Origin: Escherichia coli
Lineage (GTDB): Bacteria > Pseudomonadota > Gammaproteobacteria > Enterobacterales > Enterobacteriaceae
Length of the DNA: 64,000 bases
Reading direction: 5' to 3' (one strand)
Assembly (NCBI RefSeq): GCF_003334315.1
Contig: NZ_QOWR01000009.1
A program made the position numbers and the translations under genes. Positions 19,625-23,021 of this stretch are shown one piece after another; positions within the stretch are counted from its first letter, which is position 1, and the number at the start of each line of letters is the position of its first letter. The notes beneath the pieces were generated by a model, which saw nothing but the letters and a program-made list of their open reading frames with translations, made no database searches and had not been told where the DNA came from.

Positions 19625-20343
19625 CCGAGTTACCAATCGACGAAAACACACCGCGTATTTTGATCGTGGAAGATGAACCGAAGCTGGGGCAGTTGCTCAT
19701 TGATTATCTGCGTGCTGCGAGCTATGCGCCGACGCTTATCAGCCACGGCGATCAGGTACTGCCGTATGTGCGCCAGACACCACCGGATCTGATCCTGTTA
19801 GATCTGATGCTCCCTGGCACCGATGGCCTGACGCTGTGCCGGGAAATTCGTCGTTTTTCTGACATTCCGATCGTGATGGTGACGGCAAAAATCGAAGAGA
19901 TCGATCGCCTGCTGGGGCTGGAGATTGGCGCAGATGATTATATCTGTAAGCCGTACAGCCCACGGGAAGTGGTAGCGCGCGTCAAAACCATTTTGCGCCG
20001 TTGCAAACCGCAGCGCGAGTTGCAGCAACAGGATGCTGAAAGCCCGTTGATTATCGACGAAGGTCGTTTTCAGGCTTCATGGCGCGGTAAAATGCTTGAC
20101 CTGACGCCTGCGGAATTTCGTCTGCTGAAAACGCTCTCTCACGAACCAGGAAAAGTGTTCTCCCGCGAGCAATTGCTCAATCATCTTTATGACGACTACC
20201 GCGTAGTAACCGACCGCACCATCGACAGCCACATTAAAAACCTGCGCCGCAAGCTGGAATCTCTCGACGCCGAACAGTCATTTATCCGCGCCGTTTATGG
20301 CGTCGGTTACCGCTGGGAAGCCGACGCCTGCCGCATCGTTTAG
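19621..20343 (+). CDS. baeR: OmpR-family response regulator BaeR (240 aa)
   Basis: Receiver domain ([18 protein letters not shown]) and winged-helix C-terminus; 4-nt overlap with baeS. Confidence 0.92.
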
Positions 20344-20480
20344 TTTTAGCGACATTATTTTGTTAGCCGGAGATGGCGTTCAGACCAGATCCGGCAACAT
20401 TATCCCACGCATGGTCAGCAAACTGACATTATCTCTCCGCCCTGGCAGGCATCAGAAAATCGCTCATACTTTAATCGGTA

Positions 20481-20505
20481 AACAGCACCTTTAGATGCTG
20501 TTTTC
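20481..20505 (+). terminator. Rho-independent terminator downstream of baeR
   Basis: AACAGCA ... TGCTGTT hairpin followed by TTTT. Confidence 0.55.
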
Positions 20506-20533
20506 GATACACAATTTCAATCAAGGAGTCATT

Positions 20534-20866
20534 ATGGCTGGTTGGTTTGAACTCAGTAAGAGCAGTGATAATCAGTTCCGGTTTGTGCTAAAAGCGGGCA
20601 ATGGTGAGACTATCCTCACCAGCGAGCTTTATACCTCAAAAGCCTCTGCGGAAAAGGGCATCGCGTCGGTGCGTAGCAACAGCCCGCAAGAAGAACGCTA
20701 TGAGAAAAAAACGGCAAGTAACGGCAAATTCTATTTCAATCTGAAAGCCGCTAATCATCAAATTATCGGCTCCAGCCAGATGTACGCCACCGCGCAATCT
20801 CGTGAAACCGGAATTGCCTCCGTTAAAGCCAATGGCACAAGCCAGACGGTGAAAGACAATACGTAA
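20534..20866 (+). CDS. yegP: Small conserved protein YegP (110 aa), tandem-duplicated small domain
   Basis: ATG at 20534 preceded by AAGGAG; two internal repeats (KASAEKGIASVRSN / RETGIASVKAN). Confidence 0.85.
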   Translation: MAGWFELSKSSDNQFRFVLKAGNGETILTSELYTSKASAEKGIASVRSNSPQEERYEKKTASNGKFYFNLKAANHQIIGSSQMYATAQSRETGIASVKANGTSQTVKDNT

Positions 20867-21012
20867 TTACGATGCCGGGCGTGGGTTGTTGGCGTCCGGC
20901 GCTTTACCAGATCCCCCCACAGCGCTACAATGCCCGCCCTTAAAGTGGGGGCACTCCCCTAACCGCTTCATCAGGTGAAGCGGATCTGACCTGTCATCAG
21001 AACGAGAGAATT

Positions 21013-22374
21013 ATGTTTAAACCGGAACTCCTTTCCCCGGCGGGAACGCTGAAAAATATGCGTTACGCTTTCGCTTATGGCGCAGATGCTGTTTATGCGG
21101 GCCAGCCGCGTTACTCCCTGCGTGTGCGCAACAACGAATTCAACCACGAAAATCTTCAGCTCGGCATCAATGAAGCCCACGCGCTGGGGAAAAAGTTTTA
21201 TGTCGTGGTCAACATTGCACCGCACAACGCCAAGCTGAAAACCTTTATCCGTGACCTGAAACCGGTGGTGGAAATGGGGCCGGATGCGCTGATTATGTCC
21301 GATCCAGGGCTGATTATGCTGGTGCGTGAGCACTTCCCTGAAATGCCGATCCACCTCTCGGTGCAGGCTAACGCCGTAAACTGGGCGACGGTGAAATTCT
21401 GGCAGCAAATGGGCCTGACCCGCGTGATCCTCTCTCGCGAGCTGTCGCTGGAAGAGATTGAAGAGATCCGCAATCAGGTGCCGGATATGGAGATCGAGAT
21501 CTTCGTTCACGGCGCACTGTGCATGGCCTACTCCGGTCGCTGCCTGCTCTCTGGCTATATCAACAAGCGCGATCCGAACCAGGGTACCTGCACCAACGCC
21601 TGCCGCTGGGAGTACAACGTCCAGGAAGGGAAAGAAGATGACGTTGGCAACATCGTACACAAGTACGAGCCGATTCCGGTGCAAAATGTTGAGCCGACGC
21701 TGGGTATCGGCGCGCCAACCGACAAAGTGTTTATGATCGAAGAAGCCCAGCGTCCGGGCGAGTATATGACCGCGTTTGAAGATGAGCACGGCACTTACAT
21801 CATGAACTCGAAAGATCTGCGCGCCATCGCCCATGTAGAACGCCTGACCAAAATGGGCGTGCATTCGCTGAAAATCGAAGGCCGTACTAAATCTTTCTAC
21901 TATTGCGCACGCACCGCACAGGTTTACCGTAAAGCTATCGATGACGCCGCTGCGGGCAAACCGTTCGATACCAGCCTGCTGGAAACTCTGGAAGGTCTGG
22001 CGCATCGTGGCTATACCGAAGGTTTCCTGCGTCGTCATACTCACGACGATTATCAGAACTACGAATACGGTTATTCAGTTTCTGACCGCCAGCAGTTTGT
22101 TGGTGAGTTTACCGGTGAGCGCAAGGGGGACCTCGCGGCGGTAGCGGTGAAAAATAAATTCTCCGTTGGCGACAGCCTTGAGCTGATGACGCCGCAAGGC
22201 AACATTAACTTTACCCTTGAGCACATGGAAAACGCCAAAGGTGAAGCGATGCCGGTCGCACCAGGCGATGGTTATACTGTGTGGCTCCCGGTCCCGCAGG
22301 ATCTTGAGCTCAATTACGCTCTGCTGATGCGTAATTTCTCCGGGGAAACCACGCGTAACCCACACGGTAAGTGA
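21013..22374 (+). CDS. yegQ: Peptidase U32-family protein (453 aa), YegQ/TrhP-type tRNA-modification protein
   Basis: U32 family signature region (HGALCMAYSGRCLLSGY). Confidence 0.88.
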   Translation: MFKPELLSPAGTLKNMRYAFAYGADAVYAGQPRYSLRVRNNEFNHENLQLGINEAHALGKKFYVVVNIAPHNAKLKTFIRDLKPVVEMGPDALIMSDPGLIMLVREHFPEMPIHLSVQANAVNWATVKFWQQMGLTRVILSRELSLEEIEEIRNQVPDMEIEIFVHGALCMAYSGRCLLSGYINKRDPNQGTCTNACRWEYNVQEGKEDDVGNIVHKYEPIPVQNVEPTLGIGAPTDKVFMIEEAQRPGEYMTAFEDEHGTYIMNSKDLRAIAHVERLTKMGVHSLKIEGRTKSFYYCARTAQVYRKAIDDAAAGKPFDTSLLETLEGLAHRGYTEGFLRRHTHDDYQNYEYGYSVSDRQQFVGEFTGERKGDLAAVAVKNKFSVGDSLELMTPQGNINFTLEHMENAKGEAMPVAPGDGYTVWLPVPQDLELNYALLMRNFSGETTRNPHGK

Positions 22375-22458
22375 TTAATTTCGATTATTTTTCCCGGATG
22401 GAAAATTCTTAGAAACCGATCACATACAGCTGCATTTATTAAGGTTATCATCCGTTTC

Positions 22459-22545
22459 GCTGAAAAACATAACCCATAAAATGCTAGCTGTACCAGGAAC
22501 CACCTCCTTAGCCTGTGTAATCTCCCTTACACGGGCTTATTTTTT
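22459..22545 (+). ncRNA. cyaR: CyaR (RyeE) Hfq-dependent sRNA
   Basis: Begins GCTGAAAAACATAACCCATAAAATGCTAGCTGTACCAGGAACCACCTCCTTAGCC and ends in a hairpin plus TTTTTT; matches the CyaR sequence as I recall it. Confidence 0.8.
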
Positions 22546-22703
22546 ATGCATAAGCCCTATCCCTGGTCACCGTCTTCCATTGACCACATCGATAGAATCT
22601 CCCTTCATAGCACGATGCCTTTCACGTAACGGCATCGTGCTCGCACAGGTTCCGGCTAAGCACAACCAGAACGCACATATTTGACGCTTACCAAAAAATA
22701 TTC

Positions 22704-23021
22704 TCACTCTCCACATTTGAATGTCAGACGAGCGACACCATGTAATCCTACACCTTCTGTCTTCAGCTCAACTATTTGCATTTTTTTGCCCTGAGTAACA
22801 CAGAAATGGGCTGCATCATTTTTTACTATATTTTCTGCACCAGATATTCTACCCCTGGCTAAAGAAGCTTCGGCTTCGGTGTAGTATTGGTTATCGAGTT
22901 TACGCTGAATATTACTTTTATATGCAAGGCCAAATTTACCGATACTTGTCTCATCATTATGCACAGCACAACCAGACATAAGAAAAACACTAATTAATGA
23001 TATAGCAGCTATTTTATTCAC
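22704..23021 (-). CDS. yegR: Small lipoprotein-like protein YegR (105 aa from GTG; an upstream ATG at 23036 would add 5 aa)
   Basis: Signal peptide with lipobox-like LMSGC; AT-rich gene. Confidence 0.75.
   Translation of the reverse strand: MNKIAAISLISVFLMSGCAVHNDETSIGKFGLAYKSNIQRKLDNQYYTEAEASLARGRISGAENIVKNDAAHFCVTQGKKMQIVELKTEGVGLHGVARLTFKCGE

What the first reader, a model, noticed from the sequence alone, without database searches (positions are those of the whole stretch)
20870..21012. Structured leader upstream of yegQ(trhP)
The yegP-yegQ spacer contains an 8-bp-stem hairpin CCGCTTCA-tcagg-TGAAGCGG (20963-20983) and a GGGG-gcact-CCCC element (20947-20959) immediately before the yegQ start, with no T-tract. 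This could be a regulatory RNA structure or a protein-binding palindrome controlling this tRNA-modification gene.
Basis: seen in the sequence. Interest (0 to 1): 0.25.

Follow-up and report, generated by a model that had tools for sequence, protein, structure and literature searches.

The report
Anticodon-arm look-alike in trhP leader
The two hairpins in front of the E. coli tRNA-hydroxylase gene trhP (yegQ) are real, evolutionarily maintained RNA structures in its 75-nt leader, and a third, overlooked hairpin right next to the ribosome-binding site is a near copy of the anticodon arm of a tRNA that the enzyme modifies, which suggests (but does not prove) that the enzyme controls its own synthesis.

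Summary
Observation confirmed. Both hairpins lie at the stated coordinates, with no T-tract.

The spacer splits into three parts:
- The yegP terminator hairpin (20874-20900). Its published 3' end maps to 20904.
- A sigma-70 promoter, TTTACC-17-TACAAT, with a G+C-rich discriminator. Its published TSS maps to 20938.
- A 75-nt 5' UTR with three consecutive hairpins.

HP1 (20946-20961) and HP2 (20963-20983) keep their pairing through compensatory changes in about 80 Enterobacteriaceae species (HP2: 8 of 8 pairs; 0 of 500 shuffles reach the observed score). They act as RNA, not as a DNA palindrome.

It ends 11 nt before the AUG.
- The CUGA/UCAG stem and loop positions C32, U34 and G35 are invariant in all 99 leaders carrying the motif; only Erwinia and two Oceanospirillales lacked it.
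- The motif also precedes trhP in Vibrio, Pasteurellaceae and Psychromonas.
- HP3 matches the tRNA-Thr(UGU) anticodon arm, a TrhP substrate, at 13 of 15 positions, and at 15 of 15 in some taxa.

Best reading, inferred and not shown: a thrS-like tRNA-mimic translational operator. There is no Rfam match, and no paper was found that describes it. Interest is moderate.

The parts
20874..20905 (+). yegP terminator hairpin: GCCGGGCG, an 11-nt loop, CGUCCGGC, then GCUUU. Not part of the trhP leader.
   Evidence: Folds. The Term-seq 'primary' 3' end of yegP is at MG1655 2165559 (Adams et al. 2021 supplement). That equals window 20904, using the offset.
20903..20908 (+). -35 hexamer TTTACC of the trhP promoter. 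It overlaps the terminator's U-tract.
   Evidence: Promoter scan, 9 of 12 matches with a 17-bp spacer. TTTAC is conserved in most of the 80 species whatever gene lies upstream.
20926..20931 (+). -10 hexamer TACAAT.
   Evidence: Nearly invariant in alignment A1. TAGAAT, TAAAAT or TACAAT occupy the same place in other Enterobacterales families.
20932..20937 (+). G+C-rich discriminator GCCCGC. [G/T]CCCGCCC is conserved at 90% or more.
   Evidence: Alignments. A link to stringent or growth-rate control is an inference from general promoter knowledge and was not tested.
20938..21012 (+). 75-nt 5' UTR of trhP. The TSS is C20938.
   Evidence: Kim et al. 2012 (PMC3415461), supplementary TSS table: TSS 2163617 (NC_000913.2), 5' UTR 75 nt, 29 reads, upstream sequence ending ...TACAATGCCCGCC.
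20946..20961 (+). It spans +9 to +24 of the mRNA.
   Evidence: MFE fold. Present in every ortholog's own fold, with GAGGA/UCCUC, GUGUGGC/GCCGCAU and GGGGGUA/UACCUCC variants and loop expansions. 4 of 5 pairs show double changes.
20963..20983 (+). It abuts HP3.
   Evidence: 8 of 8 pairs are compensatory. In 94 of 99 distinct leaders, from E. coli to Vibrio, Pasteurellaceae and Psychromonas, a hairpin (7-11 bp in most of them) ends 0-3 nt before the CUGA of HP3.
20985..21001 (+). HP3: UCUGA-CCUGUCA-UCAGA. A 4-5 bp stem and 7-nt loop that looks like an anticodon arm. In tRNA numbering U34 = 20992, G35 = 20993, U36 = 20994.
   Evidence: Predicted by RNAalifold and by the single-sequence fold. The stem never varies. 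Loop positions 32, 34 and 35 are invariant in all 87 distinct leaders that carry the motif; Erwinia lacks it. It matches 13 of 15 positions of the verified E. coli thrU anticodon arm, while the next best of 25 tRNAs matches 10 of 15. Monte Carlo P(at least 13 of 15) = 3.3e-4. The pattern CTGACYTGNNNTCAG occurs once in the window (expected 0.02), and outside the trhP leaders it hits only the thrU gene among the 101 loci held at that point.
21004..21008 (+). Weak Shine-Dalgarno GAGAG, 2 nt after HP3 and 4 nt before the AUG.
   Evidence: Sequence. A GAGA-like element 1-4 nt after HP3 is conserved across families.
21013..22374 (+). trhP (yegQ) coding sequence, 453 aa, peptidase U32 family.
   Evidence: ORF list. 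RefSeq annotation reads 'prephenate-dependent tRNA uridine(34) hydroxylase TrhP'.

Best explanation
The yegP-trhP spacer holds three separate things.

(1) The yegP terminator hairpin.

(2) A conserved sigma-70 promoter with a G+C-rich discriminator. It fires at 20938.

(3) A 75-nt trhP leader that folds into three consecutive hairpins.
- HP2 sits directly against HP3. I infer that HP2 holds HP3 in shape, or stacks on it to lengthen the helix.
- HP3 is a 4-5 bp stem with a 7-nt loop, C-(U/C)-U-G-N-N-N. It copies the anticodon arm of tRNA-Thr(UGU), one of the six tRNAs whose U34 TrhP hydroxylates.
- HP3 ends 2 nt before the weak Shine-Dalgarno and 11 nt before the AUG.

Proposed mechanism (inferred, not shown): free TrhP binds HP3 as a substrate mimic and hinders 30S binding, so it represses its own translation. 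Unmodified substrate tRNAs compete for TrhP and relieve the repression. The untranslated mRNA would then be open to Rho-dependent termination. This is the logic of the E. coli thrS operator.

Separate confidences:
- Conserved structured 5' UTR RNA element: about 0.9.
- HP3 is a functional site read as RNA by a trans-acting factor: about 0.65.
- That factor is TrhP and the outcome is translational autoregulation: about 0.35-0.4. The overall confidence field refers to this full mechanism.
For: Shown here or in published data:
- The TSS lies 75 nt upstream of the AUG, and the yegP 3' end is at 20904. All three hairpins are therefore in the trhP mRNA.
- HP1 and HP2 covary.
- HP3's stem and loop positions 32, 34 and 35 are invariant in 87 distinct leaders, and it ends 11-17 nt before the start codon.
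- The same CUGA-CUUGNNN-UCAG motif, followed by a GAGA element, precedes trhP in other Enterobacterales families: Mixta, Pantoea, Pectobacterium, Sodalis, Morganella, Providencia, Photorhabdus, Yersinia and Limnobaculum.
- It also precedes trhP in Vibrio, Actinobacillus/Haemophilus, Aggregatibacter, Psychromonas and Hafnia/Ewingella.
- The thrU anticodon arm was verified as ACUGA-CUUGUAA-UCAGU. HP3 matches it at 13 of 15 positions, and the next best of 25 E. coli tRNAs reaches 10 of 15.
- The Pectobacterium and Limnobaculum versions (CUUGUGA) match at 14 of 15. L150 and L177 (CUUGUAA) match at 15 of 15.
- P(at least 13 of 15 to any of the six substrate arms) = 3.3e-4. HP3 is the best of 2,837 comparable hairpins in the window.
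- Every position-36 variant seen (U, A, C) gives UGU, UGA or UGC. These are the anticodons of three E. coli (m)cmo5U tRNAs, Thr4, Ser1 and Ala1 (anticodons; modification in Sakai et al. 2019).
- tRNA-Thr4 loses modification in a yegQ deletion (Sakai et al. 2019, PMC6599085).
- Conservation in the loop is asymmetric: the 5' side is fixed and the 3' side is free. HP3's spacing is fixed relative to the AUG but not relative to the promoter. Both features point to an RNA-level, translation-linked site.
- yegQ is listed among genes raised more than 30-fold by RT-qPCR in a rho N340S mutant (Chhakchhuak and Sen 2022). This would fit poor translation of the leader, but it is weak evidence.
Against: - No binding, reporter or toeprint data exist. 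The trans factor is a guess.
- TrhP accepts six tRNAs with six different anticodon stems. Recognition by TrhP therefore does not by itself explain why the CUGA/UCAG stem never varies from E. coli to Vibrio.
- In Enterobacteriaceae, loop position 33 is C and position 37 is C. These depart from the universal U33 and purine-37 of real tRNAs.
- The outermost U-A pair is lost in 5 of 87 leaders.
- Erwinia sp. lacks the 5' half of HP3. Two Oceanospirillales trhP leaders lack the motif entirely. The element is therefore dispensable in some lineages.
- The resemblance to the tRNA was noticed after the fact. About one match of 13 of 15 is expected per 64 kb if location is ignored.
- The microarray and BCM values for yegQ in Rho/NusG-defective conditions are inconsistent: +2.25, +1.18, -1.31, +1.44, -0.38.
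- The metagenome survey required the motif, so it shows presence, not universality.
Confidence: 0.38

Rival explanations
1. Passive structured leader. HP1-HP3 only tune mRNA stability and translation efficiency: they protect the 5' end, insulate the weak ribosome-binding site from upstream sequence, and act as a standby site. No dedicated trans-acting factor exists, and the likeness to tRNA-Thr is coincidence.
For: HP1 and HP2 behave as pure structural modules whose sequence is free. Erwinia sp. and two Oceanospirillales do without HP3. A match of 13 of 15 is expected about once per 64 kb if position is ignored.
Against: A passive 4-bp stem should covary as HP1 and HP2 do. Instead the stem and loop positions 32, 34 and 35 are invariant from E. 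coli to Vibrio, Pasteurellaceae and Psychromonas. Unpaired loop bases have no reason to be fixed without a partner. HP1 starts at +9, which leaves a single-stranded 5' end, so it is poorly placed as a 5' protective hairpin.
Confidence: 0.2
2. HP3 is an anticodon-arm mimic, but the factor that binds it is not TrhP. Candidates are another enzyme of the same pathway or of tRNA-Thr/Ser metabolism (CmoB, CmoM, TrhO, ThrRS) or an unknown RNA-binding protein.
For: The evidence is the same as for the mimic itself. Stem invariance suggests a reader that also contacts the tRNA-Thr(UGU)-type stem, which a six-substrate enzyme such as TrhP need not do.
Against: To my knowledge, not tested here, ThrRS identity rests on G35 and U36. 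Position 36 is U, A or C in the leaders. Position 37 is C, U, G or A, which argues against readers of position 37. Autoregulation by the gene's own product is the more economical reading. No data favour any particular alternative protein.
Confidence: 0.17
3. HP3 and its flanks are the pairing site of a conserved small RNA, or of another RNA, that controls trhP translation.
For: The site is a conserved sequence next to the Shine-Dalgarno. CyaR is encoded just downstream of trhP.
Against: The invariant runs are only 5, 2 and 5 nt long, and they are interrupted by variable loop positions 33, 36 and 37. That is a poor seed. CyaR (sequence shown) contains no complement of the HP3 stem halves (UCUGA, GUCAG), by eye. 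The held Hfq-CLASH tables list only one chimera for yegQ, and it lies inside the coding region (with eptB), not on the leader. A possible GcvB match rests on my memory of the sequence only and was not verified.
Confidence: 0.06
4. The leader is a small-molecule riboswitch, for instance for prephenate or a related metabolite, with HP1-HP3 forming the aptamer.
For: TrhP depends on prephenate (annotation; Sakai et al. 2019). The leader is conserved and structured. yegQ groups with thiC among strongly Rho-affected genes.
Against: There is no Rfam match at E = 10 or better apart from a 12.8-bit chance hit. The leader is three independent simple hairpins with no multi-helix junction. Conserved bases are confined to HP3. 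No conserved alternative pairing was found, and the HP2-loop/HP3-loop complementarity seen in E. coli is not conserved.
Confidence: 0.05
5. CTGA-N7-TCAG is a palindromic DNA operator for a transcription factor that blocks elongation or initiation.
For: The site has inverted-repeat half-sites that are invariant around a partly variable centre.
Against: Conservation in the centre is asymmetric (C-Y-T-G fixed, the next three free), unlike a homodimer operator. The site is centred near +56. Its distance to the promoter varies by tens of nucleotides, and by about 170 nt in Cedecea, while its distance to the start codon stays at 11-17 nt. By eye, no LexA-, CRP-, FNR- or Cra-like spacing fits.
Confidence: 0.04

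Closest known systems
E. coli thrS translational operator (ThrRS autoregulation through a tRNA-Thr anticodon-arm mimic). Cited from established knowledge, not from a tool.
   Same: An anticodon-arm-like hairpin (5-bp stem, 7-nt loop) sits just upstream of the Shine-Dalgarno of a gene whose product binds that arm. In both cases the mimicked tRNA is a tRNA-Thr. The expected logic is the same: competition with 30S binding, relieved by tRNA.
   Different: - The enzyme is a U34 hydroxylase, not a synthetase.
- There is one mimic hairpin plus two sequence-free hairpins, rather than the four-domain thrS operator with two tRNA-like arms.
- Position 36 is not conserved here, whereas U36 matters for ThrRS.
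- Binding and repression have not been demonstrated.
- The resemblance is in logic only; no sequence comparison with the thrS operator was run.
Yeast HTS1 mRNA anticodon mimic bound by HisRS (Levi and Arava 2019, PMC6542539; found, title and abstract only).
   Same: A tRNA-binding enzyme associates with its own mRNA at a putative anticodon mimic and autoregulates translation according to tRNA levels.
   Different: That system is eukaryotic, involves a synthetase, and places the mimic elsewhere in the mRNA. It was supported experimentally, which is not the case here.
Ribosomal-protein leader mimics of rRNA sites, such as the S15, S8 and L1 operators. Cited from established knowledge.
   Same: Molecular mimicry of the protein's primary RNA target, placed at the ribosome-binding site for feedback control.
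   Different: The mimicked RNA there is rRNA, and those operators are often pseudoknots or internal loops.
5'-terminal stabilising stem-loops, such as the ompA 5' UTR. Cited from established knowledge.
   Same: HP1 and HP2 are stable G+C-rich hairpins near the 5' end of an mRNA, with conserved structure and free sequence.
   Different: HP1 begins at +9. As far as I know, protective hairpins need to sit within a few nucleotides of the 5' end.

Membership tests
Conserved structured 5' UTR (cis-acting leader RNA) | The element lies between the mapped TSS and the start codon. | tested here: met
   TSS at window 20938, giving a 75-nt UTR (Kim et al. 2012 supplement). The hairpins span 20946-21001.
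Conserved structured 5' UTR (cis-acting leader RNA) | Base pairs are kept by compensatory substitutions in orthologs. | tested here: met
   HP2 has 8 of 8 pairs compensatory and HP1 has 4 of 5. 0 of 500 shuffles reach the observed values, and slid controls are far lower.
Conserved structured 5' UTR (cis-acting leader RNA) | The element matches a curated Rfam family. | tested here: not met
   A cmscan at E up to 10 over 20300-22900 found only a 12.8-bit PhotoRC-I chance hit in the leader. CyaR downstream scored 100.7 bits.
tRNA anticodon-arm mimic operator (thrS type) | A hairpin with anticodon-arm geometry (5-bp stem, 7-nt loop) and sequence likeness to a cognate tRNA. | tested here: met
   13 of 15 positions match thrU in E. 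coli, 14 of 15 in Pectobacterium, and 15 of 15 in L150 and L177. The next best tRNA reaches 10 of 15, and P = 3.3e-4. Caveat: position 33 is C and position 37 is C in Enterobacteriaceae.
tRNA anticodon-arm mimic operator (thrS type) | The nucleotides targeted or read by the enzyme are conserved in the mimic. | tested here: met
   U34 and G35 are invariant in 87 of 87 distinct leaders and in the 24 metagenomic trhP leaders. For the latter the search pattern itself demanded these bases.
tRNA anticodon-arm mimic operator (thrS type) | The mimic is next to the ribosome-binding site, so a bound protein would exclude the 30S subunit. | tested here: met
   HP3 ends 11-17 nt before the start codon, and a GAGA element follows within 1-4 nt. 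This is a positional criterion only.
tRNA anticodon-arm mimic operator (thrS type) | The gene product binds the operator. | not testable with these tools
   Needs EMSA, filter binding or CLIP with TrhP.
tRNA anticodon-arm mimic operator (thrS type) | Translation is repressed by the protein and de-repressed by substrate tRNA. | not testable with these tools
   Needs reporter fusions and toeprinting.
Intrinsic terminator / transcription attenuator | A G+C-rich hairpin followed directly by a U-tract. | tested here: not met
   HP1, HP2 and HP3 have no U-run, and the terminator scan finds none in 20867-21012. Only the yegP hairpin (20874-20900, followed by GCUUU) has a mapped 3' end.
Riboswitch | A conserved ligand-binding core with a junction or pseudoknot, plus an alternative expression-platform pairing. 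| tested here: not met
   The leader is three independent hairpins. Conservation is confined to HP3, no conserved alternative pairing exists, and there is no Rfam hit.
Palindromic DNA operator | Symmetric conservation and fixed spacing to the promoter. | tested here: not met
   The conserved centre is asymmetric. The distance to the promoter varies while the distance to the AUG is fixed.
Dispersed intergenic repeat (REP/BIME-like palindrome) | Multiple copies in the genome. | tested here: not met
   The covariance model R1 finds one copy in the 64-kb window and one per orthologous locus, plus a local duplication in Cedecea. The whole genome was not scanned.
Stringently controlled (rRNA/tRNA-like) sigma-70 promoter | A G+C-rich discriminator between the -10 and +1, and a negative response to ppGpp/DksA. 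| tested here: inconclusive
   The discriminator GCCCGC is present and conserved. The response to ppGpp was not examined.

The most novel reading that the evidence does not exclude
HP3 is not only a decoy but a true substrate. TrhP, and then CmoB, would hydroxylate or carboxymethylate the U34-equivalent (U20992) of its own mRNA leader. Translation of trhP would then report prephenate/chorismate supply through an mRNA modification, making the leader an epitranscriptomic metabolic sensor in a bacterial 5' UTR.
Probability: 0.05. Interest if true: 0.85.

Novelty: new variant of a known kind. Interest (0 to 1): 0.5.

Why it matters
If the mimic reading is right, this would be, as far as I could find, the first tRNA-modification enzyme gene governed by an anticodon-arm look-alike in its own leader. 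That would extend the thrS paradigm beyond the synthetases.

It would also give TrhP, whose RNA recognition is uncharacterised in the papers I read, a natural 17-nt minimal ligand for binding and structural work.

Whatever the mechanism, three results stand:
- E. coli carries an uncatalogued leader RNA motif, absent from Rfam 15, that is conserved from Enterobacterales to Vibrio, Pasteurellaceae and Psychromonas.
- The motif has clean covariation in two helices and an invariant third.
- The naturally occurring parDE insertion in about 41% of E. coli genomes removes the promoter's -35 but leaves the leader intact, which amounts to a ready-made natural experiment.

Tried and rejected
- **Rfam scan.** Nothing was found in the leader.
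- **Terminator or attenuator.** There is no U-tract, and no terminator-like site lies in the spacer.
- **Folding energy as evidence.** The z-scores of -1.37 and -0.56 are not significant. I relied on covariation instead.
- **Upstream small ORFs.**
  - ATG at 20930 (MPALKVGALP*) overlaps the -10 and lies upstream of the TSS.
  - GUG at 20945 opens 5 codons without a Shine-Dalgarno, and indels break the frame in orthologs.
  - Both were rejected.
- **Kissing interaction between the HP2 loop (CAGG) and the HP3 loop (CCUG).** It is present in E. coli, but HP2 loops are not conserved: cccug, ccugg, cugcgg, uuaag and others. Rejected.
- **Tgt (queuosine) recognition of UGU.** The UGU sits at 34-36 rather than 33-35, and it becomes UGA or UGC in many taxa. 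Rejected.
Position 36 varies. Unlikely.
- **sRNA pairing.** The held CLASH tables show no leader chimera. The RIL-seq supplement is not held. A GcvB complementarity recalled from memory was not verified and was dropped.
- **MAFFT alignment for HP1.** It mis-registers the short stem, and RNAalifold missed it. Per-sequence folds and a covariance-model alignment resolved this.
- **Data not obtained.**
  - The Klebsiella TSS is not in the held, truncated supplement.
  - The Thomason dRNA-seq paper is not held, and the Conway supplement is not held.
  - ppGpp data sets were not found.
Full report
**1. Where the window is**

The window is the E. coli baeS-baeR-yegP-yegQ(trhP)-cyaR region.
- yegP ends at 20866 and trhP starts at 21013.
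- The same stretch is found in 5,424 of 5,426 complete E. coli genomes. It is annotated as 'YegP family protein' and 'prephenate-dependent tRNA uridine(34) hydroxylase TrhP'.
- Window coordinate = MG1655 (NC_000913.3) coordinate minus 2,144,655.

**2. The observation**

No T-run follows either.

Thermodynamics alone does not separate them from chance. The z-score is -1.37 for the 5' UTR and -0.56 for the whole spacer.

**3. Dissecting the spacer**

- *Terminator.* The 5' third is not leader. A hairpin GCCGGGCG-N11-CGUCCGGC (20874-20900) followed by GCUUU is the yegP terminator. Adams et al. 2021 list a 'primary' Term-seq 3' end for yegP at 2165559, which is window 20904.
- *Promoter.* Overlapping its U-tract lies TTTACC (20903) - 17 bp - TACAAT (20926-20931). 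The discriminator GCCCGC follows.
- *Start site.* Kim et al. 2012 mapped the yegQ TSS 75 nt upstream of the AUG. Their printed upstream sequence ends ...TACAATGCCCGCC, which puts the TSS at window 20938.

**4.

A genome-collection scan with YegQ returned 80 species of Enterobacteriaceae.

- The -35, the -10, the discriminator and the whole leader architecture are conserved whatever gene lies upstream.
- On a structure-blind MAFFT alignment of 70 distinct leaders, RNAalifold recovers HP2 and a third hairpin.
- All 8 HP2 pairs show double (compensatory) changes. The covariation score is 0.183, against 0.102 +/- 0.007 in shuffles (0 of 500 reach it) and at most 0.101 for slid partners.
- HP1 is too short for MAFFT to register. 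Every ortholog nevertheless folds it in its own MFE structure, with variants such as GAGGA/UCCUC or GUGUGGC/GCCGCAU, and with extended versions in Raoultella.
- On a covariance-model alignment (R1/A3), 4 of 5 HP1 pairs have double changes. That alignment leans towards the model.

The pairing is conserved and the sequence is not. HP1 and HP2 are RNA structures, not protein-binding DNA palindromes.

**5.

HP3 runs from 20985 to 21001: UCUGA-CCUGUCA-UCAGA. It starts 1 nt after HP2 and ends 2 nt before the weak Shine-Dalgarno GAGAG and 11 nt before the AUG.

It behaves in the opposite way to HP1 and HP2.
- The stem never varies.
- Among 87 distinct leaders, loop positions 32 (C), 34 (U) and 35 (G) in tRNA numbering are invariant. 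Position 33 is C or U, position 36 is U or A, position 37 is any base, and position 38 is mostly A.
- The distance to the start codon is 11-17 nt.
- The distance to the promoter varies by tens of nucleotides. In Cedecea it is about 170 nt longer, because an insertion flanked by a duplicated HP2 sits in the leader.

**6. Phylogenetic depth**

- *Other Enterobacterales.* Mixta, Pantoea, Pectobacterium, Sodalis, Morganella, Providencia, Photorhabdus, Yersinia and Limnobaculum all carry CUGA-CUUG(N3)-UCAG-A followed by a GAGA-like element before trhP. One Erwinia sp. has lost the 5' half.
- *Ancestral state.* U at position 33 appears ancestral, and C33 marks Enterobacteriaceae.
- *Metagenome scan.* A DNA-pattern scan returned 120 loci. 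Twenty-four of them have a TrhP ORF starting 5-11 nt after the match, and the rest look like chance hits.
- *Taxa by exact-sequence cluster look-up.* Vibrio, Actinobacillus/Haemophilus, Aggregatibacter, Psychromonas and Hafnia/Ewingella.
- *Absence.* Two Oceanospirillales trhP leaders lack the motif.
- *Tandem arrangement.* In 94 of 99 distinct leaders, a sequence-unrelated hairpin (7-11 bp in most of them) ends 0-3 nt before the CUGA. The HP2-HP3 tandem is thus itself conserved.
- *Caveat.* The metagenome pattern demanded the motif, so this shows presence in those clades, not universality.

**7. Likeness to a substrate tRNA**

HP3 has anticodon-arm geometry. I fetched nine tRNA loci from MG1655 (25 tRNA species) and extracted their anticodon arms.

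- thrU, tRNA-Thr(UGU), is ACUGA-CUUGUAA-UCAGU. HP3 matches it at 13 of 15 inner positions. The next best tRNA (lysT) matches 10 of 15.
- The Pectobacterium and Limnobaculum versions match at 14 of 15. Two metagenomic leaders (L150; L177, Actinobacillus-like) match at 15 of 15.
- The pattern CTGACYTGNNNTCAG occurs once in the window (expected 0.02). Outside the trhP leaders it hits only the thrU gene among the 101 loci held at that point.
- Random 4-bp/7-nt-loop hairpins reach 13 of 15 against any of the six TrhP-substrate arms with P = 3.3e-4. HP3 is the best of 2,837 such hairpins in the window.
- tRNA-Thr4 is one of the six (m)cmo5U tRNAs, and it loses modification in a yegQ deletion (Sakai et al. 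2019).
- The observed position-36 variants give UGU, UGA and UGC, the anticodons of three E. coli (m)cmo5U tRNAs (Thr4, Ser1, Ala1).

**8. Mechanism (inference)**

Several features together are what one expects of a translational operator read as RNA by a protein that recognises anticodon loops:
- an invariant anticodon-arm look-alike;
- the target nucleotide U34 and its neighbour G35 fixed;
- loop conservation that is asymmetric;
- spacing locked to the Shine-Dalgarno and AUG rather than to the promoter.

The economical candidate is TrhP itself. Excess free enzyme would bind HP3 and hinder 30S binding, and unmodified substrate tRNAs would titrate it away. HP2 abuts HP3, so it may stack on it or simply keep HP3's 5' strand from mispairing. 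HP1 may do the same for HP2.

A report that yegQ rises more than 30-fold by RT-qPCR in a rho N340S strain would fit Rho acting on a poorly translated leader. However, the array and BCM values in the same paper are inconsistent.

The conserved G+C-rich discriminator suggests growth-rate or stringent control of the promoter. This is an untested inference.

**9. Weak points**

- Nothing shows binding or regulation.
- TrhP's six substrates have six different stems. Invariance of CUGA/UCAG needs an extra explanation: a reader that also contacts the stem, the fragility of a 4-bp helix, or another overlapping constraint.
- C33 and C37 in Enterobacteriaceae are not tRNA-like.
- Some lineages lack the element.
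- The likeness to the tRNA was seen after the fact.

**10. Rivals**

The rivals are a passive structure, another protein reader, an sRNA site, a riboswitch and a DNA operator. They are weighed in the rival list. None explains the combination of loop-base invariance and AUG-locked spacing as well as the mimic reading does, but the first two remain serious.

**11. Comparison with known systems**

The leader works most like the E. coli thrS operator. It is not a member of that family by sequence, and the defining functional features (binding, repression) could not be tested.

It matches no Rfam family. Searches of the held literature for yegQ/trhP together with UTR, leader, sRNA, TSS or mimic terms found no description of it.

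**12. Verdict**

- The most interesting element is the overlooked third hairpin.
- It is a new variant of a known kind, and interest is moderate (0.5).

Noticed in passing
window 22457-22542 (+): The sRNA gene cyaR (RyeE) lies just downstream of trhP, with a full-length Rfam RF00112 match of 100.7 bits. It is annotated in MG1655 at the corresponding place.
   Followed up: partly
window 20901-20921; loci L081 (686-1500) and L001: In 2,242 of 5,426 E. coli records (about 41%) the yegP-trhP match is split. In the one locus examined closely (L081; L001 carries the same junction sequence), window 20901-20921 is replaced by about 0.8 kb carrying a parD-parE toxin-antitoxin pair. The replaced stretch includes the -35 TTTACC and most of the spacer. 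The -10 and the whole leader are untouched. trhP would then depend on read-through from parDE or on a promoter without a -35.
   Followed up: partly
L074 (Cedecea sulfonylureivorans) 1219-1500: The trhP leader is interrupted after HP2 by an insertion of about 150 bp. The insertion is flanked by a direct duplication of about 25 bp that contains the whole of HP2 (ttaaCCGCTTCAcccggTGAAGCGGt). The promoter and HP1 therefore lie about 170 nt further from HP3, and model R1 scores a second, weak hit at 1248-1358.
   Followed up: partly
L029, L032, L043 (two Raoultella species and Enterobacter sp. JUb54), about 1404-1470: HP1 is enlarged by 16-18 nt inserted in its loop. The insert itself forms an extended helix (for example GGGCACUGUUCAUAACGGUGCUU), while HP2 and HP3 are unchanged.
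   Followed up: no
L092 (Erwinia sp.) 1150-1200; L100 and L101 (Oceanospirillales): Natural losses of HP3. Erwinia sp. keeps only the 3' half (UCAGA) after a long HP2-like hairpin. Two Oceanospirillales trhP genes have unrelated leaders, each with a single hairpin just before the AUG.
   Followed up: partly
window 20874-20908: The yegP terminator and the trhP -35 hexamer share bases: the terminator's UUU forms the first three bases of the -35 hexamer TTTACC. A transcript 3' end is published at 20904 and a transcript start at 20938.
   Followed up: yes
window 21013-21023: The first 11 nt of the coding sequence (ATGTTTAAACC) are invariant in all 80 Enterobacteriaceae species, including the synonymous third positions of TTT and AAA. 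The sequence differs in Erwinia, Sodalis and Morganella. This may reflect a translation-initiation constraint and remains unexplained.
   Followed up: no
window 20938-20946: The single-stranded 5' end of the mRNA (CCUUAAAGU) and the discriminator before it are conserved in sequence ([G/T]CCCGCCCTTAA). This suggests constraints on promoter escape or on the 5' end that are unrelated to the hairpins.
   Followed up: no
trhP coding region, MG1655 2166180-2166205 (window about 21525-21550): The Hfq-CLASH tables (Iosub et al. 2020) list one low-count chimera between the trhP coding region and eptB mRNA. Its relevance is unknown.
   Followed up: no
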